Position numbers: made by a program | Part shown: positions 29,101-41,100 of the stretch, one piece after another | Position numbering within the stretch: position 1 is the first letter of the stretch | Layout: each line of letters starts with the position of its first letter | Source: Escherichia coli | GTDB lineage: Bacteria; Pseudomonadota; Gammaproteobacteria; Enterobacterales; Enterobacteriaceae | DNA length: 64,000 bases | Strand: one strand, 5' to 3' | Assembly (NCBI RefSeq): GCF_003334385.1 | Contig: NZ_QOWN01000003.1

Positions 29101-32100
29101 CCAGCCTGAGCTGGAAAACGCCATCCGCGAAGCCTATGCACAGCTTTCCGCCGATGACGAAAACGCCTCTTTTGCGGTGCGCTCCTCCGCCACCGCAGAA
29201 GATATGCCGGACGCTTCTTTTGCCGGTCAGCAGGAAACCTTCCTCAACGTTCAGGGTTTTGACGCCGTTCTCGTGGCAGTGAAACATGTATTTGCTTCTC
29301 TGTTTAACGATCGCGCCATCTCTTATCGTGTGCACCAGGGTTACGATCACCGTGGTGTGGCGCTCTCCGCCGGTGTTCAACGGATGGTGCGCTCTGACCT
29401 CGCATCATCTGGCGTGATGTTCTCCATTGATACCGAATCCGGCTTTGACCAGGTGGTGTTTATCACTTCCGCATGGGGCCTTGGTGAGATGGTCGTGCAG
29501 GGTGCGGTTAACCCGGATGAGTTTTACGTGCATAAACCGACACTGGCGGCGAATCGCCCGGCTATCGTGCGCCGCACCATGGGGTCGAAAAAAATCCGCA
29601 TGGTTTACGCGCCGACCCAGGAGCACGGCAAGCAGGTTAAAATCGAAGACGTACCGCAGGAACAGCGTGACATCTTCTCGCTGACCAACGAAGAAGTGCA
29701 GGAACTGGCAAAACAGGCCGTACAAATTGAGAAACACTACGGTCGCCCGATGGATATTGAGTGGGCGAAAGATGGCCACACCGGTAAACTGTTCATTGTG
29801 CAGGCGCGTCCGGAAACCGTGCGCTCACGCGGTCAGGTCATGGAGCGTTATACGCTGCATTCACAGGGTAAGATTATCGCCGAAGGCCGTGCTATCGGTC
29901 ATCGCATCGGTGCGGGTCCGGTGAAAGTCATCCATGACATCAGCGAAATGAACCGCATCGAACCTGGCGACGTGCTGGTTACTGACATGACCGACCCGGA
30001 CTGGGAACCGATCATGAAGAAAGCATCTGCCATCGTCACCAACCGTGGCGGTCGTACCTGTCACGCGGCGATCATCGCTCGTGAACTGGGCATTCCGGCG
30101 GTAGTGGGCTGTGGAGATGCAACAGAACGGATGAAAGACGGTGAGAACGTCACTGTTTCTTGTGCCGAAGGTGATACCGGTTACGTCTATGCGGAGTTGC
30201 TGGAATTTAGCGTGAAAAGCTCCAGCGTAGAAACGATGCCGGATCTGCCGTTGAAAGTGATGATGAACGTCGGTAACCCGGACCGTGCTTTCGACTTCGC
30301 CTGCCTACCGAACGAAGGCGTGGGCCTTGCGCGTCTGGAATTTATCATCAACCGTATGATTGGCGTCCACCCACGCGCACTGCTTGAGTTTGACGATCAG
30401 GAACCGCAGTTGCAAAACGAAATCCGCGAGATGATGAAAGGTTTTGATTCTCCGCGTGAATTTTACGTTGGTCGTCTGACTGAAGGGATCGCGACGCTGG
30501 GTGCCGCGTTTTATCCGAAGCGCGTCATTGTCCGTCTCTCTGATTTTAAATCGAACGAATATGCCAACCTGGTCGGTGGTGAGCGTTACGAGCCAGATGA
30601 AGAGAACCCGATGCTCGGCTTCCGTGGCGCGGGCCGCTATGTTTCCGACAGCTTCCGCGACTGTTTCGCGCTGGAGTGTGAAGCAGTGAAACGTGTGCGC
30701 AACGACATGGGACTGACCAACGTTGAGATCATGATCCCGTTCGTGCGTACCGTAGATCAGGCGAAAGCGGTGGTTGAAGAACTGGCGCGTCAGGGGCTGA
30801 AACGTGGCGAGAACGGGCTGAAAATCATCATGATGTGTGAAATCCCGTCCAACGCCTTGCTGGCCGAGCAGTTCCTCGAATATTTCGACGGCTTCTCAAT
30901 TGGCTCAAACGATATGACGCAGCTGGCGCTCGGTCTGGACCGTGACTCCGGCGTGGTGTCTGAATTGTTCGATGAGCGCAACGATGCGGTGAAAGCACTG
31001 CTGTCGATGGCTATCCGTGCCGCGAAGAAACAGGGCAAATATGTCGGGATTTGCGGTCAGGGTCCGTCCGACCACGAAGACTTTGCCGCATGGTTGATGG
31101 AAGAGGGGATCGATAGCCTGTCTCTGAACCCGGACACCGTGGTGCAAACCTGGTTAAGCCTGGCTGAACTGAAGAAATAAAATAAATCCCCGGCGGCGTT
31201 TAGTCGCCGGGGTTATGTGATCCCCGAAGATGAAACTTATTCAATCTCTTCACAGACATCCTGCGTTAAACGCCGCATAATATCTTTTCTTAACAAAAAC
31301 TTTTGTATTTTACCTGAGGTAGTTCGCGGTAGTTTTTCGATTACCACGATATGTTCAGGATATTTATATTTTGCGACCCGTTTACGGCTAAAAAAAGCCA
31401 CTACCTCTTCCAGCGATAATGAATGATGCGGCGCTTTCAGCACGACATAAGCGCATGATCGTTCACCTAAACGTTCATCGGACATTGCAACCACACAGGC
31501 ATCGTGAATTTTAGGATGCTGCAATAAAATATCTTCCACTTCACGGCTGCTAATATTTTCGCCGCCGCGGACAATAATATCTTTTTTGCGTCCGGTAATT
31601 TTTATATAGCCAGCCTCATCCATACGGCAGAGATCGCCGCTGTAATACCAGCCTTCTTCATCCAGGGCACGGGCGGTTAATTCAGGTTCATCAAAATACC
31701 CCATAAACACATTGGGGCCACGCGAGGCTTCTTCACCTTCGCAACCTGGCGGTAAGGTCTTGCGTGCGTCATCGACCACTTTAATCTCTACACCTGCGGC
31801 AGCGTAACCATCGGTGTGCATAAAGCGCGACAAAGGATCATCGAGATTCACCACCGCATGCGGCGAACTTTCTGTGGAACCATAAACACTTAATAATTTA
31901 ATGCCGCGCTGCTGGCATTCACGCGCCACTTTTTTGGGGATTGTGGTTCCGCCGCAAAGAAAGAAACGCAGCGCTGAAAGGTCCGCGGGTTGTTTCTCTA
32001 GTACATTCAAAAGATCATAGACAAACGGCGTTGCGCCGAGCATACAGGTGCAACGCTGCTGCTCAAGCAGCGCGAGACACGCATCAGGAGTGAAAATATC

Positions 32101-38100: not shown

Positions 38101-41100
38101 GAGCATATGCCAGCCGATTTTATGCAGCGGGTTAATCTTAATGCCGGGCTTACTGGAGTCGACCCACCACAGGGTGAAGGCTTTTTTGGGATCTTTCGGT
38201 TGCGGATCGCGCGCCAGCACCAGCATATACGGGTACTCTTTCGCACCGGTAATAAAGGTTTTTTGTCCGTTGATGTAGACCTTGCCGTTTTTACGCGTGT
38301 AAGTGGTAGTGGCACTGTTGTTATCTGAGCCAGCACCTGGTTCCGTCAACGCCAGGGCATAGGCGGGATCACCCGTTTCCAGGGTGCTCTCTGCCGTTTT
38401 ACGTAGCTGCTCTGCAGAACCGAAACGGCGCATACTGTGAATACATTGACCGTTGGTAATTAAAAATGCCGGAGCACCGCATTTTGACACTTCCATCAGC
38501 GCCAGCATTTGGGTGACGTAATCCGCAGGGATACCACCAAATTCTTCCGGCACGCCAAGCATGGAAATACCGTTATCCGCCAGCGCCCGCATAAACTCAC
38601 GCGGATATGTCCCGTTTTGATCGCAGGTGCGGAAATACTCTTCCGGAAAGTTAGTCGTAATCAGTTCGCGAATACTGGCCAGCAGCAGTTCTTGTTCTTC
38701 AGTTAAAGAAAAATCCATCATTATACTCCTGTTAATGAGCCGCTTCAGGCAGGACAAAACCCATCGCCGCATCGATAAATAATCTTTCGTCCATCAGTTT
38801 GAGTTCTGGCGAAATCACTGGGGTGAAATCCATTTTGTCGAGAATATCTTTTTGTAAATCGACGCCAGGGGCGATTTCGATTAAATGCAGGCCGTCTTCT
38901 TTCAGCGTGAATACTGCGCGCTCAGTGATATAACGAACATCCAGCCCTCGCTCGAGAGCGATTTTTCCGCTGAAAGTAATTTCCGGTAGTTCCCGAATAA
39001 ATTTCTTCACCCGTCCTTCCTGGACGATATTTAATTTGCCGTCGGTAATTTCTGTTTTTAAACTGCCCGCAGTTAATGTGCCGCAGAAAATGATTTTCTT
39101 CGAAGTGGCACTGATATCAATAAATCCACCGGTGCCCATGATTTTACCATTGAATTTATGCACGCCGACGTTACCGTGCTGGTCGACTTCAGCAAAACTC
39201 AAATAACAAACATCCAGACCGCCACCGTGATAAAAATCAAACTGGGACGTCATATCCAGAATGGCACGGGTATTCACGTTCGCGCCAAAGGCGATCCCCT
39301 GTGAAGTAATTCCGCCAATCGGACCTGTTTCTACCGTCAGAATAAAGTCATCAGCACAACCTTCTTCTCGGGCGACCAGGCCAATGCCGTCAGCAATACC
39401 GACGCCGACATTCCCCACCGCGCCTTTACGCATTTCGAATAATGCGCGCCGCGCAACTAATTTACGTTGGTTTAGGGGCAGGCTAAGTTTGGTACTGTCA
39501 TCAAGGGTGAAGTCACCAGAAATAAAGCGGTTAACCGGTGCACCGCCATACAGTTGGGTTTGATCCGGATCGACCACCACAATATCCACCAGATAACCCG
39601 GAATACGGACAGATTTAGGATGCAGCGTGGCTTTCTTAACCATTTTCTGCACCTGCATCATCACAATACCGCCGTTATTGTGCACCGCCTGGGCAATAAC
39701 CAATGCGTCGAGATACATCACCTCATCTTCAAAAGTGGCGTAGCCTTCACTGTCGCAGGTGGTAGCGCGAATGAAGGCAATATCTGGCGCAATCGCTTTG
39801 TAATAGAGATATTCTTTGTTATCAAACTCGACCAGTTTAATCAGGTCTTCTTTAGTGACTTCATTCAGTTTGCCGCCTTGCTGGCGTGGATCGACAAATG
39901 TCCCGATGCCAATATCACTAATAATACCAGGCTGGTGGGCTGCGGCGGCGCGTAAGGTTTGTGTAAGTACACCTTGTGGGTAGTTATAAGCAATAATTTT
40001 ATTTTGTTCTGCGAGTTCAGAAATACGCGGCGATTGTCCCCAGTGACCACATAATGCCCATTTCACCAGACCTTCTTGCGCCAGAGGACTAATACCACGG
40101 TCGGCGCGATCGCCAAGCCCTGTTGGACTAATAATCGATAAATTACGTGGTGTTTGAGTCTGTTTATATTTATCAGCAAGAGCAGTAATTAACGTGGTGG
40201 CTTCCAGAATACCGCCGCCAGCGCCTAACACACAAAGTGTTGCTTCGTCGGGAATATAATTCACCGCTTCCTGTGCCGACAGGACCGGCACTCGTCCATT
40301 AATACGAGGTGGTTTTACAGGTTTCATTGTTAATTCCTGATTCAGATGTGATTTTCCCTACGCCAAATGGAGAATTAGCGCACAGAGACTCACGAAATAT
40401 TTTTATTAAATACGATTGAATATATTTTTTAGTTCGGCGGGGAGGGTGTTCCCGCCGAAATATTATTGCTTATGCCTGGTGTAAAATAGTTAATACCGTG
40501 CGCAAATCATTTACCGAGATTTGCCCTGGCGCAGACGCTTTTTTTACCGCACCAAAAGTTGCCGCCGAGCCAAATACTTCACCAGCCAGACGAGAAATTA
40601 CGCCAGTTTTTGCCATCGACATCGTGATAATTGGACGATCGGCATACTGCTCCTGCATCTCCAGGGTCGCGGCAAGCAACGTCAGCACATCGCTGGTACT
40701 TTGCGGCATCAGCGCAATCTTAGGAATATCGGCGTCGAAGGATTGCATTTTGCGCAGACGGGCAATGATTTCTTCGGCTTCCGGCGTTTTATGGAAGTCA
40801 TGGTTGGACATGACTACTTTCACATCATGCGCGTGGGCGTAGGCGACGGTTTCTTTAACCTGATCATCACCGGTAAATAACTCCAGATCGATCATATCAA
40901 CCAGGCCGCTGTCGATGGCTGCACGATTGAGTGCAATATAAGCCTCGGTGGAAATCGCCTGCTCGCCGCCTTCTTTGGCACTGCGGAAGGTAAACAGCAG
41001 CGGTTTTTCTGGCATGGTCTCACGGAGAATTTTTGCTGCCGCCATGACAGACTCCACATTGGAGAGGTCGGCATAGTGGTCCACACGCCATTCCAGAATA

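What the first reader, a model, noticed from the sequence alone, without database searches (positions are those of the whole stretch)
31237..40327. Orphan anaerobic acyl-CoA / electron-transfer-flavoprotein module with no known substrate (ydiF-ydiO, ydiP, ydiQRST-fadK)
Nine consecutive genes form a self-contained acyl-CoA redox toolkit: a CoA-transferase (ydiF), an acyl-CoA dehydrogenase (ydiO), ETF beta and alpha homologues (ydiQ, ydiR), an ETF-quinone-oxidoreductase-like flavoprotein (ydiS), a ferredoxin (ydiT), an acyl-CoA synthetase (fadK) and a divergently placed AraC-family regulator (ydiP). The architecture parallels the carnitine caiTABCDE/fixABCX system, but I know of no established physiological substrate for this cluster. 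It is the least understood multi-gene unit in the window.
Basis: partly seen in the sequence, partly recalled or inferred. Interest (0 to 1): 0.6.

Follow-up and report, generated by a model that had tools for sequence, protein, structure and literature searches.

The report
Likely shikimate/quinate-reducing acyl-CoA gene cluster
This well-known but functionally unassigned E. coli gene cluster is not self-contained: it is consistently linked to quinate/shikimate genes, so it most likely lets gut bacteria use these plant-derived acids as an anaerobic electron sink.

Summary
The genes are real. The window is E. coli K-12, and 31237-40327 holds fadK, ydiT, ydiS, ydiR, ydiQ, ydiP, ydiO and ydiF: eight genes, not nine.

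Five are paralogues of caiA/fixABCX (45-62% identity). The CoA-transferase and the regulator are not, and the stated span has no transporter.

The cluster is not without proposals. The literature files it under anaerobic beta-oxidation, on thin evidence.

It is also not self-contained:
- In 41 of 41 genome loci, and in Sutterella (Betaproteobacteria), ydiN-ydiB-aroD (transporter, quinate/shikimate dehydrogenase, dehydroquinase) lie directly upstream of ydiF-ydiO.
- In other lineages the same gene set is reshuffled into one operon.
- Distant YdiF homologues sit beside the non-homologous type II dehydroquinase.
- A conserved TGCAAKAT box array with identical 21/73-bp spacing precedes both ydiN and ydiQ.
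- Sutterella wadsworthensis, whose type strain carries the cluster, is reported (in another strain) to respire shikimate to hydroshikimate by an unidentified enzyme.

Best reading (confidence about 0.5): a carnitine-like, CoA-dependent reduction of the shikimate double bond. Quinate would enter via YdiB/AroD, and electrons would arrive through YdiQRST. None of this has been tested biochemically, and I found no paper making this link.

The parts
31237..32883 (-). fadK: AMP-forming acyl-CoA ligase, proposed to prime the CoA cycle
   Evidence: NCBIfam NF004758 scores 1087 bits. The next best family is cyclohexanecarboxylate-CoA ligase at 417 bits, below its cut-off. It lies downstream of ydiT in Enterobacterales and in Sutterella-type loci, at 59-63% identity. 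A C6-C8 preference in vitro is reported by the review read.
32907..32927 (-). GC-rich hairpin in the ydiT-fadK gap (possible attenuator or processing site)
   Evidence: Terminator-like site with 8 pairs, 7 of them G-C. The number of such sites in the region is not above the shuffled expectation.
32940..33233 (-). ydiT: FixX-type ferredoxin-like protein
   Evidence: 62% identical to FixX. It carries the motif C-x2-C-x2-C-x3-C plus a C-P. NF011993 scores 144 bits. It overlaps ydiS by 4 bp.
33230..34519 (-). ydiS: FixC-type ETF:quinone oxidoreductase
   Evidence: 61% identical to FixC. The best solved relative is Thermotoga maritima FixC, 7KOE_C, at 240 bits.
34575..35513 (-). ydiR: ETF alpha subunit (FixB-like)
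   Evidence: 45% identical to FixB. The best PDB matches are bifurcating ETFs (5OL2_A, 7QH2_A, 6FAH_A, 7KOE_B), which score above human ETF.
35533..36297 (-). ydiQ: ETF beta subunit (FixA-like)
   Evidence: 56% identical to FixA. NF008998 scores 500 bits.
36416..36517 (-). ydiQ upstream box array: TGCAAGAT at 36416-36423 and 36489-36496, plus a degenerate AACAAGAT at 36510-36517
   Evidence: The boxes lie at -126, -199 and -220 from the ydiQ ATG. They have the same 73- and 21-bp spacing as the array before ydiN. They are conserved in Escherichia, Citrobacter, Kosakonia and Intestinirhabdus.
36613..37524 (+). ydiP: AraC-family regulator with a cupin-type N-terminal domain; candidate binder of the box arrays
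   Evidence: NCBIfam AraC-type HTH hits. A 45% homologue sits divergent to the reshuffled cluster in L056. It is absent from Sutterella loci. ChIP-exo found no site at ydi under aerobic glucose.
36748..36761 (.). FNR site TTGACGTAAATCAA, inside the ydiP coding sequence
   Evidence: This exact sequence is reported as an in vivo FNR ChIP target 'ydiP/ydiQ'. It occurs once in the window. I found no good -10 element at class II spacing.
37567..38718 (-). ydiO: CaiA-like acyl-CoA dehydrogenase / enoyl-CoA reductase
   Evidence: 48% identical to CaiA. NF008997 scores 787 bits, and it also matches the CaiA, acryloyl-CoA reductase and cyclohexane-1-carbonyl-CoA dehydrogenase models. There is no solved structure of YdiO or CaiA.
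38732..40327 (-). ydiF: family I CoA-transferase (fused alpha/beta)
   Evidence: Identical to PDB 2AHU/2AHV/2AHW. Its homologues are repeatedly adjacent to dehydroquinase and shikimate dehydrogenase genes.
40433..40459 (.). Conserved hairpin GGCGGG...CCCGCC after aroD, followed by an AATATT...AATATT palindrome before ydiF
   Evidence: There is no U-tract on the transcribed strand, so read-through from aroD into ydiF is plausible.
40470..41228 (-). aroD: type I 3-dehydroquinate dehydratase
   Evidence: TIGR01093 scores 292 bits. It lies directly upstream of ydiF in 41 of 41 genome loci.
41259..42125 (-). ydiB: quinate/shikimate dehydrogenase
   Evidence: NF009390 scores 670 bits. The S. wadsworthensis orthologue scores 520 bits, above the cut-off.
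42137..43402 (-). ydiN: MFS transporter, first gene of the ydiN-ydiB-aroD-ydiF-ydiO co-directional string
   Evidence: Weak match to the aromatic acid/H+ symporter family. It is kept with the cluster in Sutterella, L040 and L056.
43527..43628 (-). ydiN upstream box array: TGCAATAT at 43527-43534, TGCAAGAT at 43600-43607, TGCAATAT at 43621-43628
   Evidence: The boxes lie at -132, -205 and -226 from the ydiN ATG, with 73- and 21-bp spacing. They are conserved across Enterobacteriaceae genera. In Yersinia, Serratia and Dickeya the array is replaced by a divergent LysR gene.
43629..44843 (-). ydiM: paralogous MFS transporter (accessory; found only in Enterobacterales)
   Evidence: A published analysis links the YdiM/YdiN subfamily to shikimate-pathway genes.

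Best explanation
The functional unit is larger than the finding. It is ydiN-ydiB-aroD-ydiF-ydiO together with ydiQRST-fadK, plus ydiP and ydiM as accessories in Enterobacterales. It most likely acts on hydroaromatic acids (quinate and shikimate), not on fatty acids.

**Proposed mechanism.** Only the in vitro activities of YdiB and AroD are reported, in papers I read; every other step is inferred.
1. An MFS transporter (YdiN, possibly YdiM) imports quinate or shikimate.
2. YdiB oxidises quinate to 3-dehydroquinate. AroD dehydrates it to 3-dehydroshikimate. YdiB reduces that to shikimate. The net conversion is redox-neutral and creates an alpha,beta-unsaturated carboxylate.
3. FadK makes the first shikimoyl-CoA using ATP. 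After that, YdiF passes CoA from the product to fresh substrate.
4. YdiO, the closest paralogue of the crotonobetainyl-CoA reductase CaiA, reduces the ring C1=C2 bond of the thioester.
5. Electrons reach YdiO from the quinol pool and/or NADH through YdiS/YdiT (FixC/FixX-like) and the YdiQ/YdiR flavoprotein.
6. The product, hydroshikimate (3,4,5-trihydroxycyclohexanecarboxylate), is released and exported.

The system would therefore be an anaerobic electron sink, or a respiration. It follows the same logic as carnitine reduction by Cai/Fix but uses a different substrate.
For: **Conserved linkage (genomes).**
- In 41 of 41 genome loci from at least 10 genera, aroD and ydiB lie in the same locus as ydiF, with the order ydiN-ydiB-aroD-ydiF-ydiO.
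- The same nine genes recur in Sutterella (Betaproteobacteria) as fadK-ydiTSRQ, divergent from ydiN-ydiB-aroD-ydiF-ydiO. This was seen in two species genomes and 14 human-gut or primate metagenome contigs with adequate flanks. These loci lack ydiP, ydiM and ydiL.

**Gene content kept while order changes.**
- L056 (42% GC) reads MFS-YdiF-YdiO-ETFbeta-ETFalpha-shikimate dehydrogenase-dehydroquinase I-FixC-FixX on one strand.
- L057 has shikimate dehydrogenase-YdiF-YdiO plus a second shikimate dehydrogenase.
- L136 has dehydroquinase I-shikimate dehydrogenase-MFS-YdiF.

**Non-homologous replacement.** Distant YdiF homologues (61-65% identity) in low-GC loci sit next to type II dehydroquinase (L053, L058, L132, L133). 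Overall, 5 of 10 such loci carry a dehydroquinase. My own rough estimate of the chance expectation is under 1% per locus.

**Shared cis-architecture.** TGCAAKAT boxes with identical 21- and 73-bp spacing lie before both ydiN and ydiQ. Five of the 14 window matches fall in these two short gaps, and the boxes are conserved across genera.

**Physiology.** S. wadsworthensis grows by formate/shikimate respiration and forms hydroshikimate. RNA-seq was not done on that species, so its enzyme is unidentified.

**Enzyme family.**
- YdiO is 48% identical to CaiA and shares its active-site layout.
- The acyl-CoA dehydrogenase family includes alicyclic acyl-CoA dehydrogenases.
- FixAB are needed for carnitine reduction, as stated in the review read.

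**Anaerobic and gut context.**
- There is an in vivo FNR target in the locus.
- The cluster decays in extraintestinal Salmonella.
Against: - No enzyme of the CoA/ETF part has been tested on a hydroaromatic substrate.
- From memory, YdiF was characterised only with short-chain acyl-CoAs. FadK prefers C6-C8 fatty acids in vitro.
- aroD is also the sole biosynthetic dehydroquinase of E. coli. According to the paper read, Klebsiella keeps aroD-ydiM-ydiB but lacks ydiN. In the enteric bacteria, part of the linkage could therefore be historical.
- E. lenta performs the same shikimate reduction with an unrelated flavin reductase. S. wadsworthensis has dozens of such reductases, so its phenotype need not come from this cluster.
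- The strain tested (DFI.4.78) is not the one whose locus I read (DSM 14016).
- YdiP ChIP-exo did not find the ydi promoters.
- The direction of electron flow, and whether the ETF bifurcates, are both unknown.
- Half of the most distant YdiF loci lack any shikimate-pathway gene.
Confidence: 0.5

Rival explanations
1. The published view. YdiO with YdiQRST is the anaerobic acyl-CoA dehydrogenase complex of fatty-acid beta-oxidation. FadK (and YdiF) activate short- and medium-chain fatty acids, and FadIJ complete the cycle elsewhere on the chromosome. Electrons flow from acyl-CoA to quinone.
For: - FadK is most active on C6-C8 acids.
- A fadD fadK double mutant cannot use fatty acids (the review read).
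- A 2016 paper title assigns ydiO and ydiQRST to this complex (reference list seen).
- Salmonella genomics treats ydiFO, ydiQRST and fadHIJK as one pathway.
- YdiF's best named family match is the S. aureus fatty-acid degradation protein FadX, although below its cut-off.
- ETF:quinone oxidoreductases normally run in this direction.
Against: - The same review states that experimental evidence for YdiQR is lacking.
- It also reports that fadK is not induced anaerobically in transcriptomes and shows no FadR or CRP control.
- The cluster has no hydratase, dehydrogenase or thiolase.
- This view does not explain the cross-class, rearrangement-proof linkage to dehydroquinase and shikimate dehydrogenase.
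- It does not explain the box array shared with ydiN.
- The nearest characterised paralogue, CaiA, is a reductase.
Confidence: 0.2
2. Same substrate class, opposite direction. The module oxidises a saturated alicyclic or hydroaromatic acid, such as hydroshikimate made by other gut bacteria, to shikimate. The shikimate is salvaged into aromatic biosynthesis or used for energy, and electrons pass YdiO -> YdiQR -> YdiST -> quinone.
For: - The synteny evidence is the same as for the best explanation.
- This is the canonical direction of acyl-CoA dehydrogenase, ETF and ETF:quinone oxidoreductase.
- Reduced products of such respirations are reported in faeces.
- E. coli can feed shikimate into chorismate synthesis (established pathway knowledge).
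Against: - S. wadsworthensis, which carries the cluster, reduces shikimate rather than oxidising the product, and the product did not stimulate its growth.
- CaiA/FixABCX, the closest paralogues, work reductively.
- The pairing of a CoA-transferase with a priming ligase is typical of substrate-to-product CoA recycling in reductive sinks (inference).
Confidence: 0.12
3. A generic or different enoate sink. YdiF/FadK/YdiO/YdiQRST would reduce short-chain enoyl-CoAs (crotonyl-CoA, acryloyl-CoA) or aryl-acrylates such as cinnamate and caffeate, as in CarABCDE of Acetobacterium woodii. The shikimate-pathway neighbours would be unrelated or only loosely coupled, for example through chlorogenate, which is caffeoyl-quinate.
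For: - YdiO has been used as the enoyl-CoA reductase in engineered reversed beta-oxidation.
- YdiO matches the acryloyl-CoA reductase model at 234 bits and CarC (6FAH_C) at 159 bits.
- An E. coli gut isolate reduces cinnamate to 3-phenylpropionate and raises host hippurate by an unknown mechanism.
- Esterase genes lie next to a YdiF homologue in L054.
Against: - The benefit of YdiQRST in reversed beta-oxidation is described as unclear.
- The model matches are far below the family cut-offs.
- This view does not explain why dehydroquinase and shikimate dehydrogenase genes are embedded inside the operon in L056.
Confidence: 0.12
4. No joint function. The eight (or thirteen) genes are neighbours by descent only, are regulated separately, and have unrelated or decayed roles in E. 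coli.
For: - YdiP ChIP-exo sites lie elsewhere, and YdiP has been linked to cold-shock genes.
- Promoter and terminator scans are not above the shuffled expectation.
Against: - At least 80% of the stretch is present in 5348 of 5426 E. coli genomes.
- Gene spacing is tight, from -4 to 56 bp within the strings.
- The same gene set is kept through horizontal transfer and rearrangement.
- ydiQ, ydiR, ydiS and ydiT change together in a transcriptome.
Confidence: 0.05

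Closest known systems
Carnitine/crotonobetaine reduction, caiTABCDE plus fixABCX of E. coli
   Same: - Five paralogous proteins (CaiA and FixA, B, C, X at 45-62% identity) and a ligase of the same superfamily.
- Two divergent or adjacent strings under anaerobic control.
- The same logic: ligase primes, CoA-transferase recycles, an acyl-CoA dehydrogenase-type enzyme reduces an enoyl-CoA, and ETF with FixCX supplies electrons.
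- A dehydration step creates the double bond.
   Different: - The CoA-transferase belongs to a different family (family I YdiF versus family III CaiB).
- The transporter is MFS, not the BCCT antiporter CaiT.
- There is no crotonase (CaiD) and no CaiE.
- The regulator is AraC-type, not CaiF.
- Dehydration is proposed at the free-acid level by AroD, after oxidation by YdiB, rather than on the CoA ester.
Caffeate respiration CarABCDE of Acetobacterium woodii, and the related AcdA/EtfAB aryl-acrylate reduction of Clostridium sporogenes
   Same: The part list matches: CoA-transferase, priming ligase, acyl-CoA dehydrogenase-family enoyl-CoA reductase and EtfAB. The substrate is a plant-derived 2-enoate and the product is excreted. 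CarC and CarE appear among the PDB matches, and the gene layout is described.
   Different: Car is soluble and ferredoxin-coupled, with no FixC/FixX-type quinone module. Sequence similarity is only at family level. The substrate there is an aryl-acrylate, not an alicyclic enoate.
FixABCX / EtfABCX membrane-associated ETF complexes (Azotobacter vinelandii, Thermotoga maritima 7KOE)
   Same: There are four genes in the same order. YdiS matches 7KOE_C at 240 bits and YdiR matches 7KOE_B. YdiT is a FixX-like iron-sulfur protein.
   Different: Those complexes bifurcate NADH electrons to quinone and ferredoxin or flavodoxin, and have no dedicated acyl-CoA partner. Whether YdiQR bind a second FAD or bifurcate could not be tested here.
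Flavin-type shikimate reductase of Eggerthella lenta (Little et al., bioRxiv 10.1101/2022.12.26.521950)
   Same: The net reaction is the one proposed here: shikimate to hydroshikimate as a respiratory electron acceptor in a gut bacterium.
   Different: It is an unrelated enzyme class: a single fumarate-reductase-like flavin reductase acting on the free acid, with no CoA esters and no ETF.
Anaerobic/aerobic beta-oxidation genes fadD, fadE, fadBA, fadIJ, fadK
   Same: Both have an acyl-CoA ligase and an acyl-CoA dehydrogenase-family enzyme. fadK is counted as a fad gene in the literature.
   Different: The cluster has no hydratase, dehydrogenase or thiolase, and no evidence of FadR control. Its conserved partners are shikimate-pathway enzymes.
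Hydroaromatic catabolic clusters (qui/qsu/qa) and the shikimate-to-cyclohexanecarboxyl-CoA route of Streptomyces collinus (recalled from memory)
   Same: The first shares quinate/shikimate dehydrogenase, dehydroquinase and a transporter. The second shares CoA-thioester chemistry and double-bond reduction on a shikimate-derived ring.
   Different: There is no dehydroshikimate dehydratase or protocatechuate branch in the locus. The Streptomyces enzymes belong to other families and serve biosynthesis.

Membership tests
Cai/Fix carnitine reduction system | CaiA-type acyl-CoA dehydrogenase/reductase | tested here: met
   YdiO is 48% identical to CaiA over 382 residues. It scores 452 bits on the CaiA model, below that model's 540-bit cut-off, so it is a paralogue and not an orthologue.
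Cai/Fix carnitine reduction system | FixABCX electron-transfer genes | tested here: met
   YdiQ, R, S and T are 56, 45, 61 and 62% identical to FixA, B, C and X, in the same order.
Cai/Fix carnitine reduction system | Family III CoA-transferase CaiB | tested here: not met
   YdiF had no BLASTP match to any Cai protein. It is a family I enzyme (PF01144).
Cai/Fix carnitine reduction system | BCCT substrate:product antiporter CaiT, crotonase CaiD, CaiE, and activator CaiF | tested here: not met
   No ydi protein matched CaiT, CaiD, CaiE or CaiF. The transporters are MFS and the regulator is AraC-type.
FixABCX/EtfABCX complexes | FixC-type flavoprotein with quinone site, plus FixX iron-sulfur protein | tested here: met
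   YdiS matches 7KOE_C at 240 bits. In the relatives' loci the YdiS-type product carries PF21162 and PF26311. YdiT has the cysteine motif.
FixABCX/EtfABCX complexes | Second (bifurcating) FAD in the small subunit and NADH oxidation | not testable with these tools
   The only evidence is that bifurcating ETFs score higher than canonical ones. Cofactor content needs biochemistry.
Fatty-acid beta-oxidation system | Enoyl-CoA hydratase, 3-hydroxyacyl-CoA dehydrogenase and thiolase acting with the dehydrogenase | tested here: not met
   None of these is encoded between ppsA and ydiK.
Fatty-acid beta-oxidation system | Fatty-acyl-CoA ligase activity | not tested
   Reported for FadK (C6-C8) in the literature summarised. 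It was not re-examined here.
Fatty-acid beta-oxidation system | FadR/long-chain acyl-CoA control | not tested
   The review states there is no evidence of FadR or CRP control of fadK. I did not scan for FadR sites.
CoA-dependent enoate respiration of the Car type | CoA-transferase, priming ligase, acyl-CoA dehydrogenase-type reductase and ETF in one locus | tested here: met
   YdiF, FadK, YdiO and YdiQR.
CoA-dependent enoate respiration of the Car type | Demonstrated reduction of a 2-enoate with excretion of the saturated acid | not testable with these tools
   The only evidence is an indirect phenotype in S. wadsworthensis, which carries the cluster.
Hydroaromatic (quinate/shikimate) utilisation clusters | Quinate/shikimate dehydrogenase plus dehydroquinase plus transporter in one string | tested here: met
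   YdiB, AroD and YdiN are co-directional with gaps of 11-30 bp.
Hydroaromatic (quinate/shikimate) utilisation clusters | Dehydroshikimate dehydratase leading to protocatechuate | tested here: not met
   No such gene is annotated or detected in the locus.

The most novel reading that the evidence does not exclude
E. coli, many other Enterobacterales and gut Sutterella respire dietary quinate and shikimate through this cluster, using a cytoplasmic, CoA-dependent, ETF/quinol-coupled 'shikimoyl-CoA reductase'. This would be a second, unrelated solution to the reaction that E. lenta performs with a flavin reductase. It could also be a genetic basis for the long-known hydrogenation of quinate and shikimate by gut bacteria, which feeds host hippurate formation. 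The distant YdiF-MaoC-ApbA-VOC-dehydroquinase II clusters of Clostridia-like anaerobes would be a further, hydratase-based CoA pathway for the same compounds.
Probability: 0.35. Interest if true: 0.8.

Novelty: new member of a known kind. Interest (0 to 1): 0.65.

Why it matters
These eight genes belong to the best-studied bacterium. They have been cited for twenty years either as 'anaerobic beta-oxidation' or as parts for engineered fuel pathways, yet no physiological substrate has been shown.

The comparative evidence here narrows the search to one class of compounds. Quinate and shikimate are abundant in plant food (quinate as part of chlorogenic acid). That turns an open question into a simple experiment: anaerobic cells, shikimate or quinate, and a mass-spectrometric readout in a handful of existing Keio mutants.

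If the proposal is confirmed, it would:
- assign functions to ydiF, ydiO, ydiQRST, ydiN and possibly ydiP;
- explain the puzzling dual specificity of YdiB;
- add a new electron acceptor to enterobacterial anaerobic metabolism;
- identify the unassigned shikimate reductase of Sutterella;
- bear on why the cluster decays in extraintestinal Salmonella.

If it is refuted, the beta-oxidation assignment regains ground, and the conserved linkage itself would then need explaining.

Tried and rejected
- **FNR promoter geometry.** The ChIP-reported FNR site lies 451 bp upstream of the ydiQ ATG, inside ydiP. I found no convincing -10 hexamer at class II spacing on either strand, so I make no claim about how FNR acts.
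- **Sigma-54 reading.** The TGGCA...TTGC stretch before ydiQ has the wrong spacing (17 instead of 12) by inspection, so I rejected this.
- **Generic promoter and terminator scans.** Counts are not above shuffled sequence (9 vs 10.5 and 13 vs 11.8). They are used only to point at two hairpins.
- **Common core promoter.** The distances from box C to -10-like hexamers differ between ydiQ and ydiN (63 vs 58 bp), so I did not define a common core promoter.
- **Whole-region alignment of the two promoters.** It scores only about 2.8 sd above shuffles. The argument rests on the boxes, their spacing and their conservation across genera.
- **MFS transporter of the variant YdiO-like clusters.** It is not an orthologue of YdiN (21% identity), so those clusters say nothing about the hydroaromatic link.
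- **Flanks of the Sutterella loci.** They hold a two-component system and a flavocytochrome-type reductase but no further pathway genes. My first ORF filter picked spurious long ORFs in this GC-rich DNA; I corrected this with tblastn maps and the ORF listing.
- **Rfam and PADLOC.** No RNA family was found other than RprA, outside the cluster, and there were no defence-system matches.
- **Shikimate-overproducer transcriptome.** ydiQ, R, S and T move together, but the direction and cause (stationary phase, oxygen, shikimate) cannot be separated. I count this only as evidence of operon-level co-expression.
- **Metagenome scan.** It was dominated by E. coli and Sutterella sequences and yielded only seven distant loci.
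- **Structure prediction and fold search.** Not run. They would return generic acyl-CoA dehydrogenase and ETF folds, with no coordinates for pocket analysis.
- **Papers not held in the library or blocked by the 15-paper cap.** These were Morgan-Kiss & Cronan 2004, Garcia Costas 2017 and one review. I did not try to fetch Campbell 2003 or Rangarajan 2005. Statements about all these papers rest on reviews read here or on memory, and are marked as such.

Full report
**1. What is there**

The 10-kb stretch is 100% identical to E. coli K-12 MG1655, read on the opposite strand. Mechanical ORFs and the RefSeq annotation agree:

| Gene | Coordinates (strand) |
|---|---|
| fadK | 31237-32883 (-) |
| ydiT | 32940-33233 (-) |
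| ydiS | 33230-34519 (-) |
| ydiR | 34575-35513 (-) |
| ydiQ | 35533-36297 (-) |
| ydiP | 36613-37524 (+) |
| ydiO | 37567-38718 (-) |
| ydiF | 38732-40327 (-) |

That makes eight genes.

- Six of the eight products pass the curated NCBIfam cut-off for the stated function. YdiT scores just under the FixX cut-off, and YdiP matches only the shared AraC-type DNA-binding domain. YdiF is the crystallised protein 2AHU/2AHV/2AHW.
- Gaps within the two strings run from -4 to 56 bp.
- ydiP is divergent from ydiQ (315 bp) and convergent with ydiO (42 bp).
- At least 80% of the stretch is present in 5348 of 5426 complete E. coli genomes.

**2. The cai/fix parallel**

I fetched caiTABCDE/fixABCX from MG1655 and compared all proteins.

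| ydi protein | cai/fix protein | Identity |
|---|---|---|
| YdiO | CaiA | 48% |
| YdiQ | FixA | 56% |
| YdiR | FixB | 45% |
| YdiS | FixC | 61% |
| YdiT | FixX | 62% |
| FadK | CaiC | 29% |

YdiF has no counterpart in cai. It is a family I CoA-transferase, whereas CaiB is family III. Nothing in the ydi cluster matches CaiT, CaiD, CaiE or CaiF. The resemblance is therefore real paralogy for five proteins, superfamily-level for the ligase, and only analogy for the rest.

YdiO and CaiA also share the same active-site layout in the alignment. Both have a glutamate in the F-E/D-x-E-R segment, and a glycine or serine where medium-chain acyl-CoA dehydrogenase has its catalytic glutamate. The reading of those positions rests on my knowledge of the family.

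**3. What the literature says**

The cluster is not without proposals.
- Reviews and genomics papers file ydiFO, ydiQRST and fadK under anaerobic fatty-acid beta-oxidation.
- Metabolic engineers use YdiO with YdiQRST as an enoyl-CoA reductase in reversed beta-oxidation, although the benefit of YdiQRST is called unclear.
- A 2022 review states that evidence for YdiQR is lacking. It also says that fadK is not seen to be induced anaerobically in transcriptomes and has no known FadR or CRP control, and that FadK's in vitro optimum is C6-C8.
- FNR binds in vivo at 'ydiP/ydiQ'. The reported site TTGACGTAAATCAA lies at 36748-36761, inside the ydiP coding sequence.
- YdiP ChIP-exo under aerobic glucose listed sites at sdhC, uxaB, secG and cspA, and the ydi gene names do not occur in its supplementary files. 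Another study links YdiP to cold-shock genes.

The omission of the standing beta-oxidation assignment is a gap.

**4. The unit is larger than the finding**

I scanned one genome per species for YdiO and mapped all neighbours by tblastn.
- In 41 of 41 loci with enough flank, the order ydiN-ydiB-aroD-ydiF-ydiO is kept. Downstream come ydiP (opposite strand) and ydiQRST-fadK.
- The genera include Escherichia, Citrobacter, Kosakonia, Intestinirhabdus, Yersinia, Serratia, Dickeya, Brenneria, Prodigiosinella and Symbiopectobacterium.
- ppsA is adjacent only in the Escherichia/Citrobacter group, so the block, not the wider neighbourhood, is what is conserved.

Within one order of bacteria this could be inheritance. 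The decisive cases lie outside it.
- Sutterella seckii and S. wadsworthensis (Betaproteobacteria, 57-60% GC) have ydiTSRQ divergent from ydiN-ydiB-aroD-ydiF-ydiO, at 43-84% identity.
- Longer Sutterella-type contigs from human-gut and primate metagenomes add fadK after ydiT.
- These loci lack ydiP, ydiM and ydiL.
- The Sutterella YdiB and AroD pass the curated models for quinate/shikimate dehydrogenase and type I dehydroquinase.

**5. Same content, different order, and non-homologous replacement**

Contexts of YdiF homologues show the following.

| Locus | GC / YdiF identity | Gene order |
|---|---|---|
| L056 | 42% GC; YdiF 70%, YdiO 83% | MFS-YdiF-YdiO-ETFbeta-ETFalpha-shikimate dehydrogenase-dehydroquinase I-FixC-FixX on one strand, with a divergent AraC gene 45% identical to YdiP |
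| L057 | 43% GC; YdiF 76% | shikimate dehydrogenase-YdiF-YdiO-ApbA-type reductase-glyoxalase-fold protein, then a second shikimate dehydrogenase and an MFS gene |
| L136 | YdiF 65% | dehydroquinase I-shikimate dehydrogenase-MFS-YdiF |
| L053 (Sedimentibacter), L058, L132, L133 | 30-41% GC; YdiF 64-65% | YdiF-MaoC dehydratase-ApbA-small glyoxalase-like protein, with a type II dehydroquinase; L133 also has a shikimate dehydrogenase |

Type I and type II dehydroquinases are unrelated folds that catalyse the same reaction (established knowledge; Pfam PF01487 vs PF01220). Their alternation next to YdiF argues that the reaction itself, not a particular gene, is what is linked.

By identity band, the fraction of loci with a dehydroquinase or a shikimate dehydrogenase was:

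| YdiF identity | Loci with either gene |
|---|---|
| >90% | 41/42 |
| 78-90% | 14/14 |
| 66-78% | 2/2 |
| <66% | 5/10 |

With about one dehydroquinase gene per genome, I estimate that well under 1% of 20-kb windows would hold one by chance.

**6. Shared cis-elements**

I aligned the intergenic regions of five Enterobacteriaceae genera. A repeated box, TGCAAKAT, appears in the sense orientation before both ydiN and ydiQ.
- Before ydiN the boxes lie at -226, -205 and -132 from the ATG (window 43621, 43600, 43527).
- Before ydiQ they lie at -220 (degenerate), -199 and -126 (window 36510, 36489, 36416).
- Both arrays therefore have identical 21- and 73-bp spacing.
- The window has 14 matches against 6.2 expected. 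Five of them fall in these two gaps, which total 541 bp.
- The 21-bp direct-repeat spacing is typical of AraC-family binding sites (family knowledge), which makes YdiP the obvious candidate. This is inference, and published ChIP-exo did not see it.
- In the genera that have a LysR-type gene inserted divergently between ydiM and ydiN, the ydiN array is absent, while a box remains before ydiQ in several of them.
- The aroD-ydiF gap has no box. It has a conserved hairpin without a U-tract and an AATATT palindrome. Read-through from ydiN/aroD and a separate input are both possible.

**7. Physiology in a carrier of the cluster**

Little et al. (bioRxiv 10.1101/2022.12.26.521950) report the following.
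- S. wadsworthensis and Eggerthella lenta reduce the enoate group of shikimate to hydroshikimate (3,4,5-trihydroxycyclohexanecarboxylate).
- Shikimate stimulates formate-dependent growth in both organisms.
- RNA-seq was done only on E. lenta and Holdemania. In E. lenta a single flavin reductase was induced by shikimate.
- The Sutterella enzyme is not identified.

In this library, no paper holding ydiF or ydiO ranked among those that mention the quinate/shikimate genes, and none describes CoA-dependent shikimate reduction.

**8. Best explanation**

Putting these together, the unit is ydiN-ydiB-aroD-ydiF-ydiO plus ydiQRST-fadK.
- Reported in vitro, in papers I read: YdiB interconverts quinate/3-dehydroquinate and shikimate/3-dehydroshikimate, and AroD dehydrates 3-dehydroquinate (family assignment).
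- Inferred: these steps convert quinate to shikimate, which is a cyclohex-1-ene-1-carboxylate and therefore a 2-enoate.
- Inferred: FadK primes the CoA cycle and YdiF recycles CoA.
- Inferred: YdiO reduces the C1=C2 bond of shikimoyl-CoA, as CaiA reduces crotonobetainyl-CoA.
- Inferred: YdiS/T and YdiQ/R carry electrons from quinol and/or NADH.
- Inferred: hydroshikimate leaves the cell.

That acyl-CoA dehydrogenase-family enzymes can act on alicyclic C1-C2 bonds is shown by the curated cyclohexane-1-carbonyl-CoA dehydrogenase families that YdiO partly matches. I put this reading at 0.5. The link of YdiF-type transferases to hydroaromatic acids is the strongest part. The identity of the CoA substrate and the direction of electron flow are weaker.

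**9. Rivals**

| Rival | Confidence | Main point |
|---|---|---|
| Beta-oxidation | 0.2 | Keeps the FadK data and the published claims. Does not explain sections 4-6. |
| Oxidative salvage of hydroshikimate-type acids | 0.12 | Fits the usual direction of ETF:quinone oxidoreductases. Conflicts with the Sutterella phenotype and the Cai precedent. |
| Generic or aryl-acrylate enoate sink | 0.12 | Kept alive by reversed beta-oxidation work and by an E. coli isolate that reduces cinnamate by an unknown route. |
| Pure coincidence | 0.05 | Unlikely given transfer and rearrangement with retained content. |

**10. Caveats**

- aroD is also E. coli's only biosynthetic dehydroquinase.
- Klebsiella is reported to keep aroD-ydiM-ydiB without ydiN. 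I could not check whether it also lacks ydiFO.
- The genome scan missed Salmonella, which does have the cluster. Absence from the scan is therefore not evidence of absence.
- S. wadsworthensis has many other reductases.
- The strain assayed is not the strain whose locus I read.
- The identities printed by the locus finder are for best segments.

**11. Verdict**

- The genes themselves are long known.
- What appears new is the substrate class implied by comparative genomics. It would make this a new member of the CoA-dependent enoate-reduction kind (Cai/Fix, Car).
- It is directly testable with existing mutants.

Noticed in passing
L007 4504-15054 (Escherichia albertii contig); L003 5134-17537 (Desulfovibrio desulfuricans); L005 230-11788 (Pectobacteriaceae bacterium CE70): There is a second family of clusters built around a YdiO-like protein (63-68% identical). 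It combines a family III CoA-transferase, an MFS transporter unrelated to YdiN, a second distant acyl-CoA dehydrogenase, an AraC regulator, ETF genes and a desulfoferrodoxin-domain protein. In Desulfovibrio it also has FixCX, a metallo-beta-lactamase-fold protein, a FadK-like ligase and a chemoreceptor. In E. albertii it forms an island downstream of ung; in Serratia, Prodigiosinella and Symbiopectobacterium parts of it lie right after fadK. Its substrate is unknown.
   Followed up: partly
L053 10001-14935; L058 8876-14082; L132, L133, L135, L137: Low-GC anaerobes carry a recurrent cluster: YdiF homologue, MaoC-type dehydratase, ApbA/PanE-type reductase, a small protein of about 131 aa related to a glyoxalase-fold protein, often a type II dehydroquinase, and an IclR or LysR regulator. 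It looks like a different, hydratase-based CoA pathway for the same class of compounds.
   Followed up: partly
L054 909-13133 (Hominifimenecus sp.): An MFS transporter and five esterase/hydrolase genes (three carboxylesterase-type, one 'Esterase', one PepX/cocaine-esterase-type) lie directly upstream of the YdiF-MaoC-ApbA genes. A role in splitting quinate esters such as chlorogenic acid is conceivable but untested.
   Followed up: no
L027, L028, L029, L035, L044, L050, between ydiM and ydiN: Yersinia, Brenneria, Dickeya, Serratia, Prodigiosinella and Symbiopectobacterium have a roughly 300-aa LysR-type regulator gene, divergent from ydiN. It is absent from Escherichia, Citrobacter and Kosakonia.
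   Followed up: partly
window 36613-36660 and 36748-36761: Two published regulator sites fall inside the 5' part of the ydiP coding sequence rather than in the intergenic region. They are the FNR ChIP site and a FlhDC genomic-SELEX sequence that overlaps the first codons of ydiP.
   Followed up: partly
window 32884-32939: The longest fadK ORF starts at 32937 (566 aa), whereas the annotated start is 32883 (548 aa). The extra 54 bases contain a strong GC hairpin (32907-32927), so the ydiT-fadK junction may be a regulated or processed site.
   Followed up: no
L052 (E. coli strain E69); window region: In one E. coli genome the YdiO scan matched only residues 1-71, and ydiF lies next to ppsA. This implies a deletion of ydiO through fadK. 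Other K-12 derivatives carry IS elements in the region.
   Followed up: no
protein P0175 (metagenome, 651 aa): A called protein, 83% identical to YdiF, carries an N-terminal shikimate-dehydrogenase domain (PF08501) fused to the CoA-transferase domain. It may be a real fusion or a gene-calling artefact.
   Followed up: no
window 44943-45299 (ydiL) and 45435-45542 (rprA): ydiL, a small protein of unknown function, travels with the block in nearly all Enterobacterales loci at 49-95% identity but is absent from the Sutterella loci. The sRNA gene rprA lies just beyond it.
   Followed up: no
L036 ('Martelella alba' BGMRC 2031 scaffold): A complete enterobacterial-type ydi block (YdiO 91%) sits on a 21.8-kb scaffold attributed to an alphaproteobacterium. 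This is probably contamination of that assembly.
   Followed up: no
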